From the NCBI GenBank assembly GCA_031459385.1, contig JAVKIP010000013.1, positions 19,353 to 83,352 on the forward strand: DNA of 64,000 nucleotides, in the 5' to 3' direction. This document shows, one piece after another, positions 28,916 through 64,000 of this stretch. Below the pieces are notes generated by a model, which did no database searches, had not been told where the DNA came from, and saw only the letters and a list, made by a program, of their open reading frames with translations. This DNA comes from Candidatus Fervidifonticultor secundus. GTDB lineage: Bacteria; Sysuimicrobiota; Sysuimicrobiia; Sysuimicrobiales; Humicultoraceae. The translations under genes and the position numbers were made by a program. How positions within the stretch are numbered: the first letter of the stretch is position 1; the number at the start of each line of letters is the position of its first letter.

Positions 28916-28944
28916 CAAAGAGCCGCCGGTGAACCGGCGGCTCT
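28916..28944 (-). terminator. intrinsic terminator, expression platform of the TPP riboswitch
   Basis: AGAGCCGCCGG-TTCA-CCGGCGGCTCT followed by TTGCGTT on the minus strand, between the aptamer and the RBS. Confidence 0.7.
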
Positions 28945-28953
28945 GACGCATCC

Positions 28954-29036
28954 AACTCCCTCCGCTGGTATTACCCAGCTCAGGTTCAGACGGTCGGTGG
29001 CGGGACGGCCACCCTCTCAGCCCGGCTCCCCGAGCT
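28954..29036 (-). ncRNA. TPP riboswitch (THI element)
   Basis: Minus strand GGGGAGCC..GGCTGAGAG...GACCGTCTGAACCTGAGCTGGGTAATACCAGCGGAGGGA, containing the canonical CUGAGA, ACCUGA and UAAU..CAGCG.AGGGA elements. Confidence 0.95.
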
Positions 29037-29182
29037 CCCGCGTACTATGGGTCTATGGACTCTAGCCTACGGCCGGCCGCGAGATCTGGCAAGGGGCCCG
29101 GCGTACTGGCCCTGGCGAGGGCGCGTGAGCTCTCGGTACAATGAGGCCGGTAGCCAACCCCCGCAGGGAGGAGGGATTTGCC

Positions 29183-35370: not shown

Positions 35371-35465
35371 GGAGGAGTACGGTAGCCCGGTAACCGGCCC
35401 GCCTGCTAAGCGGGTGGGCGAGTGTTGAGCTCGCCTCGCGGGTTCAAATCCCGCCTCCTCCGCCA
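35371..35465 (+). tRNA. tRNA-Ser(GCT)
   Basis: Acceptor GGAGGAG/CTCCTCC, anticodon arm CCCGC-CTGCTAA-GCGGG, long variable arm, T arm GCGGG-TTCAAAT-CCCGC, G73, encoded CCA. Confidence 0.93.
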
Positions 35466-35649: not shown

Positions 35650-35725
35650 GCGCCCGTAGCTCAGCGGATAGAGCGTTGGCCTGCGGAGCCAAAGGTCGTG
35701 GGTTCAAGTCCCGCCGGGCGCGCCA
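35650..35725 (+). tRNA. tRNA-Arg(GCG)
   Basis: Acceptor GCGCCCG/CGGGCGC, D arm GCTC-AGCGGATA-GAGC, anticodon arm TTGGC-CTGCGGA-GCCAA (GCG at 35683-35685), T arm GTGGG-TTCAAGT-CCCGC, CCA. Confidence 0.95.
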
Positions 35726-36204: not shown

Positions 36205-38850
36205 TCAGCGTAGGGAATCGGATGACGGTGTCCCGCCGGGGGTGTCGGCCAAGCCTCGGCCCGCGCTCGTGAGGCCGAGGCGGTAGGCAGCGGCCACAGC
36301 TTCGGTGCGCGTGTGCACGTTGAGCTTCCTGAGGACAGCCGAAACGTGGTGGTCCACGGTCTTGAGCGAGAGGAACAGGCGGGTGGCGATCCCCGCGTTC
36401 GGTAGGCCTTCCGCCAACAGCGCCAGGACCTCGAGCTCGCGGGCGGTGAGGCCTGCCGGATTACCCCGCGTGGCCATCCGAGAGCCGCGGGGAATGCCAC
36501 GGACGCCCCGGGCGCGCATGACGCGCCGCAGCAGGTCGATCGCCGGCCTGGCGTCCAGTTCCTCGAAGATCTCCAGCGCAGAGCGCTGCGCGGCCTCATC
36601 GCCCTCGGAGAGGGCCATCGCCTGCTCGTAGGGACATCCCAGCCGCGCCCACGCGTCGGCCGCCGCGCGCCACTCACCGCGGATCTGCATCGCGAACGGT
36701 TGGGCGCTCTGCTCGGGGAGCGCCGACAGCGCTCCCGCCTTCCAGAGCCAGTACGCCAATTCGCCGACGGCCCAGCGGCTGCCGAGACGCCGCGCCAGAG
36801 TGAGGGTCGGCTCGACGAGGGCCGGGATGCGGTCGGCCTGTCCTGAGAGCCAGGCGAACTCGGCCCGCCCGGCCGCGGCGGGCCACAGGCGCTGGAGGTC
36901 GCCGGTCACCTCGGCCAGGCGCCAGGCTTCGTCGAGGGCCTCGGCGGCCTGCGGGTCGCCGCGTCGCGCCCGGATGCGCCCGAGGACCGTGAACGCCACG
37001 ATTGGGGTGATGGGCCAGACGCCCGGCTTCGACGCCACCTGCGCGGCCAGCTCGCCGGCCTCCGCCCACCGGCCCTGCTCGAACCGCACGCGCGCGAGCC
37101 AGGCCGTGGCGTAGTGCACCTGCGCGTCCAGGTCCCGCTGCGACGAGAACGCGATCGTCTCCTCCAGGTAGCGAATTGCGGTCGGGTAGTCGCGGATCTC
37201 GCCGGACGCGCTGCCCAGGTTGCCGAGGGCGCCGGAGGCAGCGATGTCGAGACCCGCCTCCTTCGCGACGCGGAAGCTCTCTTCGAGCCTCGCGATCCCC
37301 TCGCGGCGTTCCAGCAGCACGATCTCCGTAGACCCGACCGCGTTCAGGGCCCGCGCCAGGGCCTGGGTCGCGCCGATGCGGCGGGCCAGCTCGATCGCCT
37401 TCGTCCCCCACTCGATGACGGCGCGGGCATCGCGGGCGAGCATGCCAAGGGAGCTGCGCGTGGCGTAGGCCGTCGCGAGCTCGGGCCCGTGCGGCAGAGG
37501 CTCCAGCAGGTCGATCGCCTCCTGCGCGTGCGCCGCGGCCTCGGCGCTACGCCATGCGCTCCACAGGATCATCGCATACTCCGCCAGGGCCGCACCCTCG
37601 CGCACCCGGTCGCCCATCCGGCGCCGGATCTCCAGCACCTGCGCGCGCGCCTCCAGCGCCTCGGGGATGTGGTCGGTCGCCCGGGCTTCGACCGCATAGC
37701 CTTCGTACAGCGCGGCCAGCGCCTCCGGCTCGAGCCGCGCAGCGAAGCGTAGCGCCCGCGCGTACTGCTCGAAGGCCTGGCGGTGCGCGCCGCGGGCCGC
37801 CGCGTCGTGCGCGGCCGCGGCGGCGTGCCGGAGCACCGCCTCCCCGTCGCCCGCCACCTCGGCGTGGTACGCGAGCCGTGCTGGATCGGCGCCCGCCTCC
37901 CGCTCGAGCGCGGCCAGGGCGCGAGCGTGGAGGCGGCGCCGCTCGTCCGGCGGCACGGTGTCCTCGACGGCCAGGCGGGTGAGTTCGTGCCGAAACCGGA
38001 GGGTGTGGCCCTCGTCCACCAGGACCCCGGTGCCCAGGCACTCGGCGACGGCGTCGTCGGGGGCGTGCGTCATCTGGGCCAGCAGCCGACGCTCCACGCG
38101 GCCCGGCACGACCGCGGCGGCCTCTGCCACCCGTCGCGCGGCCGCGGAGAGCCGCGAGGTGCGCGCGAGCACCGCGTCGCGGACTGTGACCGGGAGGCCT
38201 CGCGCCGGGCTCGCCAGGATCTCGGTGACGTAGAACGGATTGCCGCCGGTGACCGCGTAGAGTCCTTCGGCGGACCGGCCGGCGCGTCGCGCCAGCGCGG
38301 CGACCGCGGCTTCCGAGAGGGGCGGGAGCCACACCCGCGTCACGCTGGCTGCCGGGAGGTCGCCCAGCACGCGCCGGAGCGGGTGGCTGGCGGTCACCTC
38401 GTCGTCGCGATACGTGAGGATCAGCATCGCCCGCGTCCGGTGGATTCGCCGTCCCACGAACTTAACCAAGTCGAGGGTGGCTTCGTCGGCCCAGTGGACG
38501 TCCTCGAACACGACGAGGGTGGGCCGCGTGGCCGCGCGGAGGTCGTTGAGGAAGGCCGTGAAGATGGCGGTCCGAGGGGCCTGGGTCTCGAGGAGCGAGA
38601 GCAGGTTCGACCGCTCCTGCAGGGCGATGTCGTGCAGCGGGCCTAGCGGCCGCGGGGTGAACAGCGCCTCGCACCCGCCCCAGAGCGCGCGCACGGCGTC
38701 GCGGTGTGCCGAGACGAAGTGCTCGACGAGGACGCTCTTGCCGATGCCGGCCTCGCCGAACACCAACGCCACGCGGCCCTCGCCGCCGGCCGTGACGCTG
38801 AAGGCCCGGCCGAGATCGGCGAGCTGGGCACCCCGCTCGAGTAGCTCCAT
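36205..38850 (-). CDS. large ATP-binding LuxR family regulator (LAL/MalT-like: AAA ATPase, TPR-like region, LuxR HTH)
   Basis: GEAGIGKS Walker A, VFEDVHWAD Walker B, TGGNPFYV, LTARELEVL...NAGIATRLFLSLKTVDHHVSAVLRKL. Confidence 0.93.
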   Translation of the reverse strand: MELLERGAQLADLGRAFSVTAGGEGRVALVFGEAGIGKSVLVEHFVSAHRDAVRALWGGCEALFTPRPLGPLHDIALQERSNLLSLLETQAPRTAIFTAFLNDLRAATRPTLVVFEDVHWADEATLDLVKFVGRRIHRTRAMLILTYRDDEVTASHPLRRVLGDLPAASVTRVWLPPLSEAAVAALARRAGRSAEGLYAVTGGNPFYVTEILASPARGLPVTVRDAVLARTSRLSAAARRVAEAAAVVPGRVERRLLAQMTHAPDDAVAECLGTGVLVDEGHTLRFRHELTRLAVEDTVPPDERRRLHARALAALEREAGADPARLAYHAEVAGDGEAVLRHAAAAAHDAAARGAHRQAFEQYARALRFAARLEPEALAALYEGYAVEARATDHIPEALEARAQVLEIRRRMGDRVREGAALAEYAMILWSAWRSAEAAAHAQEAIDLLEPLPHGPELATAYATRSSLGMLARDARAVIEWGTKAIELARRIGATQALARALNAVGSTEIVLLERREGIARLEESFRVAKEAGLDIAASGALGNLGSASGEIRDYPTAIRYLEETIAFSSQRDLDAQVHYATAWLARVRFEQGRWAEAGELAAQVASKPGVWPITPIVAFTVLGRIRARRGDPQAAEALDEAWRLAEVTGDLQRLWPAAAGRAEFAWLSGQADRIPALVEPTLTLARRLGSRWAVGELAYWLWKAGALSALPEQSAQPFAMQIRGEWRAAADAWARLGCPYEQAMALSEGDEAAQRSALEIFEELDARPAIDLLRRVMRARGVRGIPRGSRMATRGNPAGLTARELEVLALLAEGLPNAGIATRLFLSLKTVDHHVSAVLRKLNVHTRTEAVAAAYRLGLTSAGRGLADTPGGTPSSDSLR

Positions 38851-38953
38851 GGGACTCCCCGCCACGCGGTTTGCCGCCGGACGCGTCTGTGCCTCCATCC
38901 TCGGCCGGTGAGCGCGGACCCTCGCGCGACGCCGGCCGCCTCGCGCGCCGGCA

Positions 38954-38988
38954 AAGATAGGGAGCCGCGCCCGCCAATCTGGGGAGCC
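38954..38988 (+). promoter_or_regulatory. tandem direct repeat, candidate LuxR-regulator binding sites
   Basis: AAGATAGGGAGCC (38954) and AATCTGGGGAGCC (38976), 22 bp apart, in the divergent luxR/DUF4242 intergenic region. Confidence 0.5.
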
Positions 38989-39059
38989 TTCCCGATGCGG
39001 CCGATCCTGGTGGGCGGCTATCCTCGCGGCAGACATCGATCCGCAGGAGGAGGGAGAAC

Positions 39060-57480: not shown

Positions 57481-58251
57481 GTGACGTCCCTGCCCCTGCG
57501 CCTCCCCGAGTGCACCTGGACCGAGGCCCGGGAGCGCCTGCAGAGCGCTTCCGTGGCGATCCTGCCCGTGGGGGCGCAGGAGGCGCACGGTCCCCACCTG
57601 CCCACGTCGACGGACGTCATCATCGCGGAAGAGATGGCTACCCGCGGCGCGGCGGAGTTGCGCCGGCGCGGCGTCGAGGCCGTGGTGCTGGCCGCGCTGG
57701 ACTACGTGGTCACCTATGCCGGCGCGCCGTTTCCAGGCACCATCGGTATCACGCCACCCACACTGCAGGCCCTGGTGGTGGACATCGGGCGCAGCCTCGA
57801 GCGCCAGGGCGTGCGGCTCCTGCTGATGGCGAGCGCGCACCTGGAGCAGATCCACCTGGACACGCTGCGCCACGCGGCCCTGGCGCTTGCCCGCGAGACC
57901 GCGCTGCGCGCGGCCGTCCTGGACATCCGCGAGCCCCAGTGGGCCGCGCGCCTGTCGGAGGAGTTCCGCCGGGGCGCACGCCACGCCGGGTCGTATGAGA
58001 CGTCGCTGGTCTGGGCGGTGCGGCCAGACCTAGTCCGGATGGACGTCGCGCGCGGCCTGCAGCCGGTCTGGGTGGACCTCCCGGCCGCTCTTCGGGCCGG
58101 CGCCCGGTCGTTCGCCGAGGCGGGCTCGCCCATGGCCTACTTCGGGGATCCGGCCCGGTCCTCGCGCGAGGAGGGCGAAGCGCTCTATGCGGCGCTGGCA
58201 ACCATCGTTGCCGACGCGGTGGAGGCGCTGATAGGGCCGGATGTGGCCTGA
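57481..58251 (+). CDS. creatininase/creatinine amidohydrolase family protein
   Basis: LPVGAQEAHGPHLPTSTD, FPGTI, SAH, HAGSYETS, GDP. Confidence 0.9.
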   Translation: MTSLPLRLPECTWTEARERLQSASVAILPVGAQEAHGPHLPTSTDVIIAEEMATRGAAELRRRGVEAVVLAALDYVVTYAGAPFPGTIGITPPTLQALVVDIGRSLERQGVRLLLMASAHLEQIHLDTLRHAALALARETALRAAVLDIREPQWAARLSEEFRRGARHAGSYETSLVWAVRPDLVRMDVARGLQPVWVDLPAALRAGARSFAEAGSPMAYFGDPARSSREEGEALYAALATIVADAVEALIGPDVA

Positions 58252-58305
58252 CGTCTGATCTGAGAGGTCTAACGAGACTATACGATGGGCACAAGTTAGA
58301 CAAGA

Positions 58306-58388
58306 GCCTCCGATAAGGGCATACCTGCCGCGAGGCAGGGACGCAAAGCCACAGGACCCCTCGGGGTCAGCTGGGTTGCCGAAGAGGA
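58306..58388 (+). ncRNA. c-di-GMP-I (GEMM) riboswitch
   Basis: AAGGGCATA-CCTGCC-GCGA-GGCAGG-GACGCAAAGC...GTCAGCTGGGTTGCCG: P2 capped by a GNRA loop, the conserved GACGCAAAGC junction, P3, and P1 CCTC/GAGG. Located upstream of GGDEF genes. Confidence 0.88.
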
Positions 58389-58448
58389 TTTCGCGGTCGA
58401 CGATCGCGGAGGACTCCTCGTGCTGCCGTGCGGGGGCCGGTCCGGTCT

Positions 58449-58490
58449 GACGCGGAATCCTCGATGCAGGATTCCGCGTCGTGCCTTTTT
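58449..58490 (+). terminator. terminator-like hairpin, expression platform of the c-di-GMP riboswitch
   Basis: GACGCGGAATCCT-CGATGC-AGGATTCCGCGTC (13-bp stem), then GTGCC-TTTTT. Confidence 0.6.
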
Positions 58491-58523
58491 CGCGGCTGAC
58501 GGTCTGGACACGAGGAGCAATCG

Positions 58524-59711
<1,188 letters not shown>

Positions 59712-59770
59712 GTCTGAGAGGCCGTGCTGGTGGGCACAACCAGACCAGTATCGCCGGCCCAAGCACCCAT

Positions 59771-60853
59771 ATGCCACTGCGCGCTCAAAACACCCCCGAG
59801 CACACCCCTGCCGAACCGTCCGGGGTGCCTGCGGAGCTCCACCTCCGCGTCCGGAGCTCCGCCCTGCGCCTCCGGGTCGGCTCCCGGGCCGGCCGAGTAC
59901 TCGTCGTCGACGACGATGCCTGGGTGCGCAACACCCTGCGCAAGCTCGAGCAGTTCGGGGCCCAGGTCGAGGTACTGGAGGGCCCCGAGGGCCTCCTGGA
60001 GGTCGCGCGGCAACACCGGCCCGACGTCATCATCATCGATGGCGCGATCCCCGACGCGTCGAACCTCATCAAACACCTGGGCGCCGATCCGGTGACGCAC
60101 CCCATCCCGGTCCTCGTGCTGCTCGACCGCAACGACGTCGAGGGGCGGGTGCGGGCGCTGGAGGACGGGGCCTTCGACTGTCTGACGACCCCTTTCCACC
60201 CGCCGGAGGTCCTGGCGCGCGTCGAGAAGGTCCTGCACGTCAAGGGCCGGGAGGATGCGCTGCGCCGGCGCATCACCTTCCTCGAGGAGCTGGCCACCTC
60301 CGACCCGCTGACCAGCCTGCTCAACCGCCGCGCTCTGGAGGAGCGCCTCTACTTGGAGATGGAGCGCGCGCGCCGCAGCGGGCACCCGCTCTCGTGCCTG
60401 ATCCTGGACATCGACTGGTTCAAGGACATCAACGACCGCTACGGCCACAAGGTCGGCGACGACGTCATCCGTCAGCTGGCCAAGGTGGTGCTGGAGCGCA
60501 AGCGGGACCGCGACGTGGTGTGCCGCTACGGCGGCGAGGAGTTCGTCTGGCTACTCCCCGGCATCGACAAGGGACTCGCGGTGGAGATGGCCGACCTGCT
60601 CCGCCGGGCGGTCCATGAGATCGACATCCCCACGGGCGAGGGCTCGTTCAACATCACCATCAGCGTGGGTGTCTCGACCTACCAGTGGAAGGAGCACGGC
60701 CGCCAGTCGGCCGAGGCCCTGCTGGAGCGGGCAGACCAGGCCCTCTACCAGGCCAAGGAACAGGGGAAGAACCGCGTCGTCTACCTCGACCCGTCCGTTG
60801 AACACCCGCTCGAGGAAGCCGCGCCGGGGCAGAACGCGGTGGACCTGGTCTAG
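59771..60853 (+). CDS. REC-GGDEF diguanylate cyclase (PleD/WspR-like)
   Basis: VLVVDDD, IIID; DPLT.LLNRR, DIDWFKDINDRYGHKVGD, RxxD I-site (RDRD), RYGGEEF. Start uncertain. Confidence 0.93.
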   Translation: MPLRAQNTPEHTPAEPSGVPAELHLRVRSSALRLRVGSRAGRVLVVDDDAWVRNTLRKLEQFGAQVEVLEGPEGLLEVARQHRPDVIIIDGAIPDASNLIKHLGADPVTHPIPVLVLLDRNDVEGRVRALEDGAFDCLTTPFHPPEVLARVEKVLHVKGREDALRRRITFLEELATSDPLTSLLNRRALEERLYLEMERARRSGHPLSCLILDIDWFKDINDRYGHKVGDDVIRQLAKVVLERKRDRDVVCRYGGEEFVWLLPGIDKGLAVEMADLLRRAVHEIDIPTGEGSFNITISVGVSTYQWKEHGRQSAEALLERADQALYQAKEQGKNRVVYLDPSVEHPLEEAAPGQNAVDLV

Positions 60854-60982
60854 ATGCCCCGGCTCTTCCTGTAGCCTTCCGCGCGGAGATGTCCGCCTGA
60901 GCAGGGGAACTGTGGGAGAGTGCGAATGTCCCCGGAGCCGGGATCGAACTTCTCAGCAGGCGCTGCGCAGGCCGGGCCCTCC

Positions 60983-62263
60983 ATGAGAACCGTGGGGCAG
61001 ATCATGTCCACGAACGTGGTGACCGTCGAGGCCACGCGAACCGCGGGGGAGGCTGCGGCCATCATGCTGGAGCGCGACGTCACGGTGCTGCCCGTGGTCG
61101 ATGGCGGGCGGCTCGTGGGCCTGGTGACCATGCGCGACCTGCTCCGTACGCCGCCCTACCGCCCGCTGGAGGAGGTGATGCGGCGAGACGTGCACATGGT
61201 CTCGCCCGATGCTTCGGTGACCAGCGTCTACGCGGCGATGGAGAGCCACGGCGTCTCCTACCTGCCGGTGGTCCAGGCGCACCGCGTGGTCGGCCTCGTG
61301 AGCCGCGAGGATGCGATCCGGGCCCTCGGCCTCCCCATCGACCCCCTGACCGAGCTGCCCTGGGCGGTCACGCTGCGCGAGCGGGCAGTGGAGGCGCTCA
61401 AAGACGGCCGGGAGATCGCCATCCTCTTCTTCGATCTCGACGACTTCGGCGTGGTGAACAAGCGCTTCGGGCATGTGACCGGCGATCGCTGCATCAAGGC
61501 CGTAGCTCAGGCGCTGGCCGCGACGATCGACTCTGCCCGCGACTTCCTCTGTCGGTACGCGGGCGACGAGTTCGCGGTGCTCACGACGCGGCCGCGCGCC
61601 GAGGCCGAGGCGTTGGGGCGCCGCGCGCTGGAGGCGATCGCCGCGGTGCGGCCGGAGGGCATTCCCCAGGACGTCCGGCTGACCGCCTCCCTGGGCATCG
61701 CGGGCGGCAAGCGCACCACGGAGCGCCAGGACATCCACTTCCAGGCCACCGTAGACGACCTGATCACCCTGGCCAGCCGCCACAGCACCCAGGCCAAGGC
61801 CCTCAAAGAGAAGACGGCGCCGGCCGCCGCGCTGCCCGCGGGGGCGCCCCGCCTGCAGCTGCGCCGCGTGGCGCTGGAAGCCGGCCCCGAAGAGACCACG
61901 GCCACCGTCGAGCTCGCGCTGGGCGAGCGGCGCTACGTCGGTGTGATCGCCGGGGCCAACGTCGGGCTGGCCGGCTGGCGCCAGCTGGCCGACGCGACGG
62001 TCCAGGCGGTGAACCACGCGCTGTCCGACGGCTGGAAGGTGGTGCTGGACGATGTCAGGCTCATCGGGCCGCCGATCGAGACCCTGGTGGTCGTGACCGT
62101 CTACCTGGGCAGGGCCACGGCACCGCCCGAACGCCACACCGGCAGCACCCGGGTCGCTGCCGGGGACGTCGGGACGGCCGTCGTCGGTGCCACCCTGGAC
62201 GCCCTGAACCGCCGTCTCGGCCTGCTCCTCGCGAGCGCCCATCGCACCGCGCCCCCTCGGTGA
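60983..62263 (+). CDS. CBS-pair / GGDEF (AGDEF variant) protein with extra C-terminal domain
   Basis: Two CBS repeats (LPVVDGGRLVGLVT, LPVVQ..VVGLVS); DPLT, DLDDF..VN..FGH..GD, RYAGDEF. Start 60983 or 60920/60926. Confidence 0.88.
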   Translation: MRTVGQIMSTNVVTVEATRTAGEAAAIMLERDVTVLPVVDGGRLVGLVTMRDLLRTPPYRPLEEVMRRDVHMVSPDASVTSVYAAMESHGVSYLPVVQAHRVVGLVSREDAIRALGLPIDPLTELPWAVTLRERAVEALKDGREIAILFFDLDDFGVVNKRFGHVTGDRCIKAVAQALAATIDSARDFLCRYAGDEFAVLTTRPRAEAEALGRRALEAIAAVRPEGIPQDVRLTASLGIAGGKRTTERQDIHFQATVDDLITLASRHSTQAKALKEKTAPAAALPAGAPRLQLRRVALEAGPEETTATVELALGERRYVGVIAGANVGLAGWRQLADATVQAVNHALSDGWKVVLDDVRLIGPPIETLVVVTVYLGRATAPPERHTGSTRVAAGDVGTAVVGATLDALNRRLGLLLASAHRTAPPR

Positions 62264-63120
62264 ACGACGGCTCCACCCTGCGGGTCACCGTGCTGGGGCT
62301 TGGCCTGATGGGCCGCCCCATGGCGCGCCGGCTGGCGCAGGCCGGGTTCGACGTGCGTGGCTGGAACCGCTCGCCGCTCGCCCCCGACCTCGTCGCCGGC
62401 ATCCGGCGGTGCGCGACGCTGGCGGAGGCCGCTGACGCCGACGTCTGCCTCCTCATGCTCGCCGACTCGGCCGCGACCGACGCCGTGCTCGAGCGTCTCG
62501 ACCCGCACCTGCGCGCCGGCCAGCTCGTCCTCGACATGGGCTCTTCCGATCCGACCCACTCGGTCGCGCACGCGGCGCGCCTCGCGGCGCGGGGCATCGG
62601 TTGGGTGGACGCCCCGGTCTCCGGCGGCCCGGAAGGGGCGCGGACCGGCACGCTCGCCATCATGGTCGGCGGGGAGGCGGCCGACGTGGCCCGCGTCCGA
62701 CCCGTGCTCGAGGCCCTGGGCGGGAACGTCGTGCACGTCGGCGGTCCCGGCAGCGGCCACACCACCAAAGTGATCAACCAGGTGATCGTCGCGCTGACGA
62801 TCGAGGCCGTGGCCGAGGCCCTGACCCTGGCCGAGCGGTGCGGACTCGACCCGCGGCGGGTGCAGGAGGCGCTGCGCGGCGGCTTCGCCGACTCGAAGGT
62901 CCTGCAGATCCACGGGACCCGGATGATCGCCCGCGACTACACGCCCGGCGGGCGCGCGGCGCTGCAGCTCAAGGACCTGCGCATGGCGCAGGCCCTGGCC
63001 CGGCAGGCCGGTCTGGTCCTACCCCACCTCGAGAGCGCCGTCGCCCGCTACGAGCAGGTGGTGGCCCGGGGCGACGGCAACCTGGACCACTCGGTCGTGC
63101 ACAGGCTGCTGTGGGTGTGA
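62260..63120 (+). CDS. beta-hydroxyacid dehydrogenase (2-hydroxy-3-oxopropionate reductase-like)
   Basis: GLGLMG, DAPVSGG, TKVINQ, GGFADS, KDL. GTGA overlap with the upstream gene. Confidence 0.92.
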   Translation: MNDGSTLRVTVLGLGLMGRPMARRLAQAGFDVRGWNRSPLAPDLVAGIRRCATLAEAADADVCLLMLADSAATDAVLERLDPHLRAGQLVLDMGSSDPTHSVAHAARLAARGIGWVDAPVSGGPEGARTGTLAIMVGGEAADVARVRPVLEALGGNVVHVGGPGSGHTTKVINQVIVALTIEAVAEALTLAERCGLDPRRVQEALRGGFADSKVLQIHGTRMIARDYTPGGRAALQLKDLRMAQALARQAGLVLPHLESAVARYEQVVARGDGNLDHSVVHRLLWV

Positions 63121-63192
63121 GATGCGCCGCGCCGCACGCAGACGCGGCCCGGCACACCGGCGTCGGCGCGGAAGGAGCAGCGGGGCCGACCC

Positions 63193-63744
63193 TCAGCGGA
63201 GCTGCCAGACCCCGTTCAACCGCTCCAGCAGCTTCTCAGGCGTCGCCTCGATCAGGATCACCTGACGGTATTCGGGCCGCACGAACCGCTCGGCCACCGC
63301 GTGGTCGATGAACTGTACCAGCGGGTCGTAGTAGCCCGCCGTGTTCAGCAGCCCTACTGGCTTGTGGTGCAGGCCCAGCGTTGCCCACGCCACGACCTCG
63401 AAGAGCTCCTCCAGCGTGCCGAAGCCACCAGGCAGCGCCATGAAGGCATCGCCCAGCTGCATCATCAGGGCCTTGCGCTCGTGCATCGACGCCACCATGT
63501 GGACCTGCGTCAGGTCGGGGAACGACAGCTCGCGCTCCACCAGCAGCCTGGGGATAATCCCGACCACCTCGCCCCCCGCCGCTCGCACCGTGTGCGCCAG
63601 CTCGCGCATCAGGCCCACGTTGGAGCCACCGTAGACCAGCGTGAGCCCGCGCTCCACCAGCGCCCGCCCCAGCCGCCGGGCGGCGTCGAGGTAGTCGGGC
63701 CGCGCGCCGTGGTTCGAGCCGCAGAAGACGGTCACGCGCTTCAT
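63193..63744 (-). CDS. LOG family nucleotide monophosphate phosphoribohydrolase (TIGR00730-type)
   Basis: VFCGS, LVYGG..GLM, MHERK, PGGFGTLEE, KPVGLLN. Confidence 0.94.
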   Translation of the reverse strand: MKRVTVFCGSNHGARPDYLDAARRLGRALVERGLTLVYGGSNVGLMRELAHTVRAAGGEVVGIIPRLLVERELSFPDLTQVHMVASMHERKALMMQLGDAFMALPGGFGTLEELFEVVAWATLGLHHKPVGLLNTAGYYDPLVQFIDHAVAERFVRPEYRQVILIEATPEKLLERLNGVWQLR

Positions 63745-64000
63745 GTAGCGGAAGGTTCGCCGCCGGCGGGGCCCGCCCCCTCGGGTTTGCCGCCCGCGAC
63801 GTGTCCGCCCCCGGCGACCTCCCCGCCGCCTGCGGCGAAAGCAGCCCAGGCGGCCGAACGCTGTGACGCGTCGGCCGGCTCGTGGTCGAGGCACTCGATG
63901 CGGAGCTCGCGGTCTCCGAACGGCGCGTCGACGAAGGCGCAGTGGTGGGGACGCGCAAGGTCCGGGTGCACATGGGGCCGGAAGAAGCGGCAGGTCACGC
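63741..64000 (-). CDS. C-terminal Cys/His-rich part of a gene entering from the right edge (probably a MarR-type regulator)
   Basis: VTCRFFRPHVH...PHHCAFVDAPFGDRELRIECLDHE. The stop overlaps the LOG start (ATGA). The MarR assignment is from recalled family resemblance; the HTH is outside the window. Confidence 0.55.
   Translation of the reverse strand, partial: VTCRFFRPHVHPDLARPHHCAFVDAPFGDRELRIECLDHEPADASQRSAAWAAFAAGGGEVAGGGHVAGGKPEGAGPAGGEPSAT

What the first reader, a model, noticed from the sequence alone, without database searches (positions are those of the whole stretch)
58306..63120. c-di-GMP riboswitch predicted to switch OFF a kinase plus two-GGDEF gene cluster (RNA-level negative feedback)
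Seen: a GEMM-I aptamer (58306-58388) is followed by a 13-bp hairpin and T5 (58449-58490), then PAS-HK, REC-GGEEF, CBS-AGDEF and a translationally coupled dehydrogenase, all on the same strand. The 3' strand of P1 and its extension, GAGGATTTCGCG (58384-58395), can form 12 consecutive pairs (one G-U) with the 5' arm of the hairpin, CGCGGAATCCTC (58451-58462), which is an antiterminator. Inference: ligand binding locks GAGG into P1 with CCTC (58307-58310), frees the terminator and silences genes that make the ligand. This would add to product inhibition at the intact RxxD I-site. GEMM riboswitches are an established class; this particular circuit is my inference. Caveats: the T-tract is 5 nt from the stem, and co-transcription across the 60-130 bp gaps is unproven.
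Basis: partly seen in the sequence, partly recalled or inferred. Interest (0 to 1): 0.85.

Follow-up and report, generated by a model that had tools for sequence, protein, structure and literature searches.

The report
c-di-GMP riboswitch before a diguanylate-cyclase operon
A standard c-di-GMP-sensing RNA switch sits in front of genes that make c-di-GMP and is probably wired to shut them off when the signal is high, a sensible but unproven feedback loop of an already known kind.

Summary
A class I c-di-GMP (GEMM-I) aptamer lies at 58309-58384: 68.1 bits against RF01051 and 66.2 bits against RF03167. A 13-14 bp hairpin with a T5 tract follows at 58448-58490. Then come PAS-histidine kinase, REC-GGEEF (with an RDRD I-site), CBS-AGDEF and a dehydrogenase gene, all on the + strand. 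The 12-pair complementarity between 58384-95 and 58451-62 is real. It is kept in both same-genus genomes and in seven other leaders of the same bacterial family (119 of 120 cells paired), including loop bases the terminator does not need.

Because of it, folding models give mixed answers for this leader.

In relatives, the same aptamer and switching strand are joined directly to a single terminator, a predicted ON design. In 7 of 11 such leaders the next gene encodes an HD-GYP-type (HD_5) protein; none of the 10 leaders with the second hairpin does.

My best reading is an OFF switch acting by transcription termination, confidence about 0.5. The main rival is a platform like Bc1 of Bacillus thuringiensis, whose second terminator ignores the ligand. 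This is a new member of a known kind and of moderate interest.

The parts
58248..58292 (+). Conserved block between the upstream creatininase gene's stop codon and the aptamer; possible promoter or operator
   Evidence: Mostly invariant columns in the three same-genus genomes. The consensus scan found no sigma-70-like site. The role is inferred.
58309..58384 (+). c-di-GMP-I (GEMM-I) aptamer. P1 can be extended to 58307-12 with 58380-87.
   Evidence: RF03167 66.2 bits; RF01051 68.1 bits. All 24 aptamer pairs form in 3 of 3 genomes, one with a compensatory change.
58384..58395 (+). Switching strand A (GAGGAUUUCGCG). Its first four bases are the 3' strand of P1.
   Evidence: Invariant except position 5 (A/G) in 3 genomes. 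The same strand is found in 23 related platforms.
58389..58411 (+). Local hairpin H2 (strand A' with B), extendable by 58384-86 with 58414-16 and further into the aptamer's 3' side. No U-tract follows it.
   Evidence: Present in the MFE. 30 of 30 cells paired in 3 genomes, with 4 pairs varying on one side.
58414..58422 (+). B-tail CUCCUCGUG. It is complementary to the 3' strand of P1 and also, over 9 bp, to the Shine-Dalgarno region at 58509-17.
   Evidence: Read from the sequence. UCCUCGUG is invariant in 3 genomes. The MFE with the aptamer enforced pairs it with the SD region.
58428..58448 (+). Spacer B', which can pair with B inside the long antiterminator hairpin
   Evidence: Platform-only MFE. 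The sequence is not conserved.
58449..58480 (+). Terminator hairpin (5' arm C 58449-62, 3' arm D 58467-80), with a possible extension 58444-85
   Evidence: Terminator scan. 39 of 39 cells paired, with 2 compensatory pairs in 3 genomes.
58486..58490 (+). T5 tract
   Evidence: It is T6 in G002 and TTTGGT in G001.
58513..58526 (+). Shine-Dalgarno GAGGAG and the ATG of the kinase gene
58524..59711 (+). PAS-HisKA-HATPase_c histidine kinase
   Evidence: Pfam
59771..60853 (+). REC-GGDEF protein with a GGEEF motif and RDRD five residues upstream of it
   Evidence: Pfam; translation. Orthologues at 84% and 70% identity lie next to the leader in G002 and G001.
60920..62263 (+). 2xCBS-GGDEF protein with an AGDEF motif, no RxxD, and about 170 C-terminal residues without a Pfam match
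   Evidence: Pfam; translation
62260..63120 (+). NAD-binding 3-hydroxyisobutyrate/6-phosphogluconate dehydrogenase-like gene, overlapping the previous gene by 4 nt

Best explanation
This is a canonical class I c-di-GMP riboswitch in the leader of a four-gene operon: PAS-kinase, REC-GGEEF diguanylate cyclase, CBS-AGDEF protein and a dehydrogenase. It most likely acts as an OFF switch on transcription.

Without ligand, strand A (58384-95) pairs with the terminator's 5' arm (58451-62). B pairs with the spacer, so 58384-58462 forms one long antiterminator hairpin. That hairpin covers the loop-proximal CCUC, which is where the terminator would nucleate.

With c-di-GMP bound, P1 holds GAGG (58384-87). 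The rest of strand A falls back onto the local partner B (hairpin 58389-98 with 58402-11). CCUC is then free, the terminator zips up, and RNA polymerase stops at the T-tract (58486-90).

Shown here: the aptamer match, the terminator with compensatory changes, the conserved A:C complementarity, and the gene content. Inferred: ligand binding, the polarity, co-transcription of the four genes, and the feedback logic.
For: Aptamer:
- It scores above both Rfam cut-offs.
- At the two columns where the GGC-variant consensus differs, it carries the canonical bases (alignment).

Terminator:
- 39 of 39 cells pair in 3 genomes, with 2 compensatory pairs.

A:C pairing:
- 36 of 36 cells pair in the 3 orthologues.
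- 119 of 120 cells pair in 10 two-hairpin leaders (108 of 108 without the unpublished L031).
- The last 1-3 bases of C lie in the terminator loop, yet 'UC' is kept in 10 of 10.
- Chance expectation for such a site is about 0.001 per 100 nt.

Folding models:
- Folding the platform alone, A:C is in the MFE at the decision point in 10 of 10 leaders.
- For the full leader it is in the MFE in 6 of 10.
- With base-pair span limited to 85 nt, P(A:C) is 0.96 here and at least 0.45 in 10 of 10.
- The result holds from 37 to 70 C.
- The findpath barrier from antiterminator to terminator falls from 13.4 to 3.0 kcal/mol when GAGG is sequestered. It drops by at least 6 kcal/mol in 8 of 10 leaders.
- With GAGG blocked, strand A pairs with B in this leader.

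Gene context:
- 11 related leaders carry the same strand A built into a single terminator with a U-tract. That hairpin goes from -13.6 to -18.4 kcal/mol down to -5.7 to -8.1 kcal/mol when GAGG is blocked, so it is a predicted ON design.
- The genes after those 11 are HD_5 (6), REC-HD_5 (1), REC in fetches that end too early to see more (3), and no Pfam hit (1).
- None of the 10 two-hairpin leaders precedes an HD_5 gene.

Operon:
- Gene order is kept in G001 and G002.
- No other + strand terminator-like site lies in 57900-63400.
Against: - Unrestricted folding of this leader at the decision point prefers hairpin H2 plus long-range pairs: -78.2 against -76.5 to -77.7 kcal/mol, with P(A:C) = 0.24.
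- An MFE-following walk along the transcript never forms A:C and always forms the terminator, with or without the aptamer enforced.
- The full-context barrier from the pre-C MFE to the antiterminator is 22.5-25.8 kcal/mol in the three orthologues. It is 3.6-8.5 kcal/mol for the platform alone.
- A:C shows no double-sided covariation, only wobble-compatible one-sided changes.
- GAGG pairs with CCUC in both B and C, so ligand binding weakens both partners to first order.
- 4 of the 10 two-hairpin leaders keep a U-rich tail after B (6-7 U of 10). That would give two terminators in series, as in Bc1, where c-di-GMP had no effect on expression (PMC11218506; abstract and Discussion read).
- There are no RNA data and no ligand-binding data.
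Confidence: 0.5

Rival explanations
1. A Bc1-like platform. c-di-GMP binds and remodels P1 and the first hairpin (H2), but the downstream terminator forms in both states. The leader is then a constitutive attenuator, responding to c-di-GMP only with another factor or not at all.
For: In the MFE-following walk the terminator forms under all three constraint sets. The full-length MFE contains the terminator with and without the aptamer enforced. The full-context barrier to the antiterminator is 22.5-25.8 kcal/mol. For Bc1 of B. thuringiensis, T1 unfolds with c-di-GMP while T2 stays intact and masks the effect (PMC11218506, abstract and Discussion). 4 of 10 two-hairpin relatives have a U-rich tail after the first hairpin.
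Against: It does not explain why the terminator's 5' arm, including loop bases, stays complementary to strand A in 10 of 10 leaders from several genera. It also does not explain why every leader has a spacer able to pair with B. H2 in this leader has no U-tract, so it is not a T1.
Confidence: 0.2
2. An ON switch. Ligand-bound P1 strips GAGG from hairpin H2 and exposes the 3' end of B. The spacer then captures B, and the freed remainder of strand A holds the terminator's 5' arm, so c-di-GMP raises expression of the cyclase operon (positive feedback).
For: With GAGG blocked, the MFE at the decision point in G002 and G001 still pairs A' with C'. The ancestral-looking platform in relatives, strand A in a single terminator, is an ON design. 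Weinberg 2007 (PMC1950547) describes ON as the common GEMM design.
Against: With GAGG sequestered, the modelled barrier from A':C' to the terminator is only 2.5-8.3 kcal/mol in all ten leaders, against 12.8-18.1 in the eight where the terminator becomes the MFE. In this leader the GAGG-blocked MFE pairs A' with B, not C. Two-hairpin and single-hairpin designs precede different gene classes, which suggests different logic.
Confidence: 0.12
3. Control is mainly translational. When P1 forms, the released B-tail CUCCUCGUG (58414-22) pairs with CACGAGGAG (58509-17) and hides the ribosome-binding site. The hairpin at 58449-80 serves RNA stability or partial attenuation.
For: A 9-bp perfect complement can be read from the sequence. 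UCCUCGUG is invariant in 3 genomes. The MFE with the aptamer enforced pairs the SD region with the B-tail.
Against: The SD region is predicted mostly paired in the free fold too, with coding sequence, so the model shows no difference in accessibility. The SD regions of G002 and G001 match the B-tail less well. Any CCUC-rich strand is anti-SD-like by composition.
Confidence: 0.08

Closest known systems
c-di-GMP-I (GEMM-I) riboswitches, Rfam RF01051; for example Cd1 upstream of flgB in Clostridioides difficile, an OFF switch acting through a terminator (Cd1 is recalled, not read here)
   Same: Aptamer fold and sequence (68.1 bits). Location in a 5' leader. An intrinsic terminator as the expression platform. 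The 3' strand of P1 is shared with an alternative helix.
   Different: The regulated genes make the ligand. The switching strand has three possible partners (P1, B and C) rather than two. No experimental data exist for this leader.
Bc1 riboswitch of Bacillus thuringiensis (PMC11218506)
   Same: A GEMM-I aptamer followed by a long platform with two hairpins in series. The first overlaps the aptamer and is loosened by the ligand.
   Different: In this leader the first hairpin has no U-tract, and the second hairpin's 5' arm is complementary to the switching strand over 12 bp. I do not know whether Bc1 has such complementarity. Bc1 did not respond to c-di-GMP.
GEMM leaders with a terminator overlapping the aptamer's 3' side (Weinberg et al. 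2007, PMC1950547; predicted ON)
   Same: The 11 single-hairpin relatives (for example L025, L033) are of this kind and share strand A with this leader.
   Different: This leader adds a second hairpin that carries the U-tract, which plausibly inverts the logic.
c-di-GMP-I-GGC variant (Rfam RF03167)
   Same: It is cmscan's top hit by E-value (66.2 bits).
   Different: At model columns 9 and 37 the window has G and A, where the variant consensus has A and G. It therefore looks canonical. That column 37 is the ligand-stacking A47 of Vc2 is recalled, not checked.

Membership tests
c-di-GMP-I riboswitch (RF01051 / clan CL00126) | Covariance-model score above the curated cut-off | tested here: met
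   68.1 bits against a cut-off of 35; 66.2 bits against 59 for RF03167
c-di-GMP-I riboswitch (RF01051 / clan CL00126) | P1 plus two hairpins around a three-way junction, with pairs kept in relatives | tested here: met
   24 of 24 aptamer pairs form in 3 of 3 genomes, one with a compensatory change. With only three close genomes the covariation is weak.
c-di-GMP-I riboswitch (RF01051 / clan CL00126) | Ligand-contacting bases (G20, A47, C92 in Vc2 numbering, recalled) | tested here: inconclusive
   The sequence reads AAGGGC, GACGCAAAGCC and GCCGAAG at the aligned columns. The mapping to Vc2 numbering is from memory.
c-di-GMP-I riboswitch (RF01051 / clan CL00126) | Binds c-di-GMP | not testable with these tools
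   Needs in-line probing, ITC or SHAPE with ligand
c-di-GMP-I-GGC variant (RF03167) | G at the column where the canonical class has A (model column 37) | tested here: not met
   The window has A at 58345 under consensus G (alignment)
Intrinsic (Rho-independent) terminator | G+C-rich stem followed by a U-tract | tested here: met
   14 pairs, 8 G-C, T5 tract 4-5 nt after the stem, or adjacent if the stem extends to 58444-85. Compensatory changes are seen in 2 pairs.
Transcriptional OFF riboswitch | An antiterminator that shares bases with P1 and with the terminator's 5' arm | tested here: met
   12 bp between 58384-95 and 58451-62; kept in 119 of 120 cells across 10 leaders
Transcriptional OFF riboswitch | The antiterminator is the favoured ligand-free fold at the decision point | tested here: inconclusive
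   P = 0.24 unrestricted, 0.96 with span limited to 85 nt, MFE in the platform-only fold, never reached in the MFE-following walk
Transcriptional OFF riboswitch | More termination with ligand | not testable with these tools
   Needs single-round transcription
Active diguanylate cyclase (GGDEF) | GG(D/E)EF active-site motif; RxxD I-site five residues upstream (motifs recalled) | tested here: met
   REC-GGDEF protein: RDRD-VVCRY-GGEEF. CBS protein: AGDEF with SARD, so neither motif is met there.

The most novel reading that the evidence does not exclude
Across one family of bacteria, found by DNA match in runs labelled hot-spring metagenome, a single conserved module is wired in two opposite ways. 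The module is the GEMM-I aptamer plus the switching strand GAGGRUUUCG. Before HD-GYP-type genes the strand is the 5' base of the only terminator, so the switch is ON with c-di-GMP. Before kinase/cyclase and GGDEF-EAL genes a second, strand-complementary terminator is added and the first hairpin becomes a fallback partner, so the switch is OFF with c-di-GMP through a toehold-gated terminator. Together these would form an RNA-only push-pull homeostat for c-di-GMP, and would show how riboswitch polarity can be inverted by adding one hairpin.
Probability: 0.35. Interest if true: 0.6.

Novelty: new member of a known kind. Interest (0 to 1): 0.4.

Why it matters
[quoted passage not shown] GGDEF, HD-GYP, PAS and histidine-kinase genes were nonetheless already listed as GEMM-associated in 2007 (PMC1950547, Table 2 passage).

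If the predicted polarity holds, this operon and its relatives would give a clean natural example of direct RNA-level product feedback on a second messenger. They would also provide a matched ON/OFF pair built on one aptamer, which is useful for studying how expression platforms evolve and for designing sensors. If it behaves like Bc1, it adds a second case of a ligand-blind dual-hairpin platform.

Tried and rejected
- RNA evidence: the look-up of sequencing runs listed no RNA holder.
An Atlas look-up of a large LuxR-type regulator pointed loosely to Actinomycetota. That is a lead only.
- Translational control: predicted SD accessibility did not differ between the free and aptamer-enforced folds.
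- P1 extension: pairing beyond GAGG (58303-05 with 58389-91) is possible in this leader but not kept in G002 (read), so I dropped it.
- Origin of the second hairpin: I considered a duplication of the first. I rejected it because the arm order is permuted (B-like arm, then A-like arm), which neither a tandem nor an inverted duplication gives. This is an argument from the sequences.
- Other Rfam hits: the low-scoring matches in 58200-58600 (mir-3017, Scr4115, mir-9456, PhotoRC-I; E 0.44-7.6) are chance level.
- Kinetic simulation: a Kinfold-type run was judged too slow for the script machine and was not run.
- GGC variant definition: the term 'c-di-GMP-I-GGC' occurs in only 3 held papers, none of which defines it. 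The supplements of the paper that introduced it were not seen.
Full report
**What is there**

The window holds a class I c-di-GMP aptamer at 58309-58384 on the + strand.
- cmscan reports it as c-di-GMP-I-GGC: 66.2 bits, cut-off 59, E 1.9e-13.
- The canonical model RF01051 scores 68.1 bits at the same place, cut-off 35.
- At the two columns where the GGC consensus differs from the window (model columns 9 and 37), the window has G and A, so GACGCAAAGCC.
- I therefore read it as a canonical aptamer. That column 37 corresponds to the ligand-stacking adenine of the Vibrio Vc2 aptamer is from memory.
- The assembly (3.3 Mb, 59 contigs) has 8 matches to RF01051, all above the cut-off.

The terminator follows the aptamer.
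- The terminator scan finds a single + strand site in 57900-63400: stem 58448-58481, 14 pairs, tail TGCCTTTTTC.
- Constrained folds extend the stem (58444-46 with 58483-85) so that it touches the T5 tract at 58486-90.

- PAS-HisKA-HATPase_c, 58524-59711.
- REC-GGDEF, 59771-60853.
- 2xCBS-GGDEF, 60920-62263.
- A dehydrogenase, 62260-63120, overlapping the previous gene by 4 nt.
- The REC-GGDEF protein reads RDRD-VVCRY-GGEEF.
- The CBS protein reads SARD-FLCRY-AGDEF and has about 170 C-terminal residues with no Pfam match.

I name the segments as follows.
- A: 58384-95, GAGGAUUUCGCG. Its GAGG is the 3' strand of P1.
- B: 58402-19.
- B': 58428-48.
- C: 58449-62.
- D: 58467-80.

A also forms a local hairpin with B (58389-98 with 58402-11, plus GAG:CUC). 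That hairpin is part of the minimum-energy fold of 58300-58500: -108 kcal/mol, z = -4.98, 0 of 200 shuffles as good. B is not followed by a U-tract.

**Orthologous leaders**

Two genomes of the same genus, G002 and G001, carry the same leader. BLAST identity is 79% and 78% over 280 and 231 nt. It is followed by a kinase, a REC-GGDEF protein (84% and 70% identity) and a second GGDEF gene on the same strand. Their kinases lack the PAS domain.

On the three-genome alignment:
- Terminator: 39 of 39 cells paired, with two pairs changed on both sides.
- Hairpin A:B: 30 of 30 cells, with four one-sided changes.
- A:C: 36 of 36 cells, with three one-sided changes and none on both sides.
- Strand A itself is invariant except for one A/G position.

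With three close genomes these counts are weak. The shuffling control was reached in 38 of 500 shuffles for the first structure and in 341 of 500 for the second.

**The wider family**

A DNA search of 61 related genomes (G000 included) found matches in 56. From the loci returned, plus 13 further stretches I fetched, I extracted 23 platforms that begin with the same strand A.

| Platform type | Number | Loci |
|---|---|---|
| Both a B site and, 30-50 nt later, a C site that is the 5' arm of a hairpin with a U-rich tail | 10 | L017-L021, L023, L024, L029, L031, L032 |
| B site only, followed at once by 5-9 U in ten bases | 11 | L022, L025, L027, L030, L033, L037, L038, L040, L042, L044, L046 |
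| Neither type | 2 | L026, L034 |

L031 comes from an unpublished genome (G019). L028 (G010, also unpublished) was looked at but not used.

In the ten two-hairpin leaders:
- A:C pairs in 119 of 120 cells, 24 of them G-U (108 of 108 without L031).
- The last one to three bases of C lie in the terminator loop.
- The final UC, which pairs with the GA of GAGG, is kept in 10 of 10.
- The spacers between B and C do not align between genera, so this conservation is unlikely to be mere recency.

**Gene context**

| Platform type | Next gene (Pfam) | Number |
|---|---|---|
| Single hairpin (11) | HD_5 | 6 |
| | REC-HD_5 | 1 |
| | REC, in fetches that end after about 130 residues | 3 |
| | no Pfam hit (L022) | 1 |
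| Two hairpins (10) | histidine kinase: this operon and its two orthologues | 3 |
| | PAS-kinase-REC | 1 |
| | GGDEF-EAL (one of the two is L031) | 2 |
| | DUF7305 | 1 |
| | nothing assignable | 3 |
| | HD_5 | 0 |

The REC-HD_5 protein has HD, HHE and GYP motifs. The stand-alone HD_5 proteins have HE in place of HD, and GYP in two of the three I read. Their phosphodiesterase activity is therefore a family-based inference.

The single-hairpin design is the classical predicted ON design (PMC1950547). Sequestering GAGG takes the hairpin from between -13.6 and -18.4 kcal/mol to between -5.7 and -8.1 kcal/mol, and leaves 4 nt between stem and U-tract.

These loci are kin, so the split by gene class is suggestive and not a statistical test.

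**Folding models: results in favour of the OFF reading**

- Platform alone, from A to the end of C: the MFE has A:C at its base in 10 of 10 leaders. B pairs with the spacer inside it.
- Full leader: A:C is in the MFE in 6 of 10.
- With pairs spanning more than 85 nt forbidden, P(A:C) is 0.96 here and at least 0.45 in all ten.
- The picture holds from 37 to 70 C. This is relevant because the runs that hold this DNA are labelled hot springs metagenome (X1-X4, possibly the source itself).
- The direct-path barrier from antiterminator to terminator is 13.4 kcal/mol with GAGG free and 3.0 kcal/mol with GAGG removed.
- Eight of ten leaders show a drop of at least 6 kcal/mol (seven of nine without L031). 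In L024 and L029 the antiterminator stays the MFE.
- With GAGG blocked, strand A in this leader pairs with B. That gives B a role as the fallback partner in the bound state.

**Folding models: results against the OFF reading**

- Unrestricted folding of this leader at the decision point prefers hairpin A:B extended into the aptamer, plus a long-range helix: -78.2 against -77.7 or -76.5 kcal/mol, with P(A:C) = 0.24.
- A walk that follows the MFE as the transcript grows never forms A:C, and forms the terminator under all three constraint sets and all five thresholds.
- From the full-context MFE before C emerges, the barrier to the antiterminator is 22.5-25.8 kcal/mol in the three orthologues. 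For the platform alone it is 8.5, 5.6 and 3.6 kcal/mol.
- These methods ignore tertiary structure and true kinetics, so they do not settle the polarity.

**Precedent**

In Bc1 of Bacillus thuringiensis, a GEMM-I aptamer is followed by two terminators. c-di-GMP unfolds the first, the second stays intact, and expression does not respond (PMC11218506; abstract and Discussion read). Four of the ten two-hairpin relatives keep a U-rich tail after B and could behave this way. I cannot explain those four under the OFF model, except by supposing the U-rich stretch is a pause site.

**Verdict**

- The aptamer is genuine (about 0.95).
- It governs the terminator at 58449-90 in the leader of the operon (about 0.75).
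- OFF polarity is the best-supported reading (about 0.5 overall).
- The rivals are a ligand-blind platform (0.2), an ON switch (0.12) and mainly translational control through the anti-SD B-tail (0.08).

GEMM upstream of GGDEF, HD-GYP, PAS and kinase genes is in print since 2007 (PMC1950547, passage with Table 2). A 2019 review calls control of c-di-GMP metabolic genes rare (PMC6366702, passage). My searches for a described feedback circuit of this kind turned up none in the listings I read, but I did not open most of those papers.

This is a new member of a known kind. The family-wide ON/OFF pairing on one switching strand is the more interesting lead.

Noticed in passing
window 28940-29051 (-): TPP riboswitch, 59.4 bits against a cut-off of 54.3.
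   Followed up: no
window 35371-35462 and 35650-35722 (+): Two tRNA genes. The first has a long variable arm.
   Followed up: no
G000 contigs C4, C7, C10, C23 (L002-L008): Seven further GEMM-I aptamers in this 3.3 Mb assembly. They precede a sigma-70 family gene, three GspH-like pseudopilin genes, a Fur-family regulator followed by ZnuA, a CarboxypepD_reg-domain protein, and one gene with no Pfam hit. The Fur/ZnuA leader looks like a classical OFF design. The link to zinc is curious, because Zur binds the Bc1 platform (PMC11218506).
   Followed up: partly
L019 about 1896-1927 (G001), roughly 250 nt upstream of its full riboswitch: A 32-nt copy of the aptamer's 3' end plus strand A (96.9% identical to the window) lies just after the upstream gene's stop codon. 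This suggests past duplication or recombination between riboswitch copies.
   Followed up: no
window 58248-58292: A block upstream of the aptamer is nearly invariant in three genomes and contains GACGTCT-like repeats. It may be a promoter or operator. No sigma-70-like match was found.
   Followed up: no
window 61790-62263 (C-terminal part of the CBS-GGDEF protein): About 170 residues after the truncated GGDEF match (profile positions 3-137 of 161) have no Pfam family.
   Followed up: no
L018, L019 (G002, G001): The orthologous kinases lack the PAS domain present in the window's kinase; HisKA starts near residue 16 or 67.
   Followed up: no
L025, L027, L033: The stand-alone HD_5 proteins behind single-hairpin riboswitches read LLHEIGK (HE, not HD). 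One of them has GRP instead of GYP, so they may not be active phosphodiesterases.
   Followed up: partly
window 36205-39036 (-) and 63193-63999 (-): A 943-aa LuxR-type AAA regulator (Atlas features), and a LOG / Lysine_decarbox family gene convergent with the operon.
   Followed up: no
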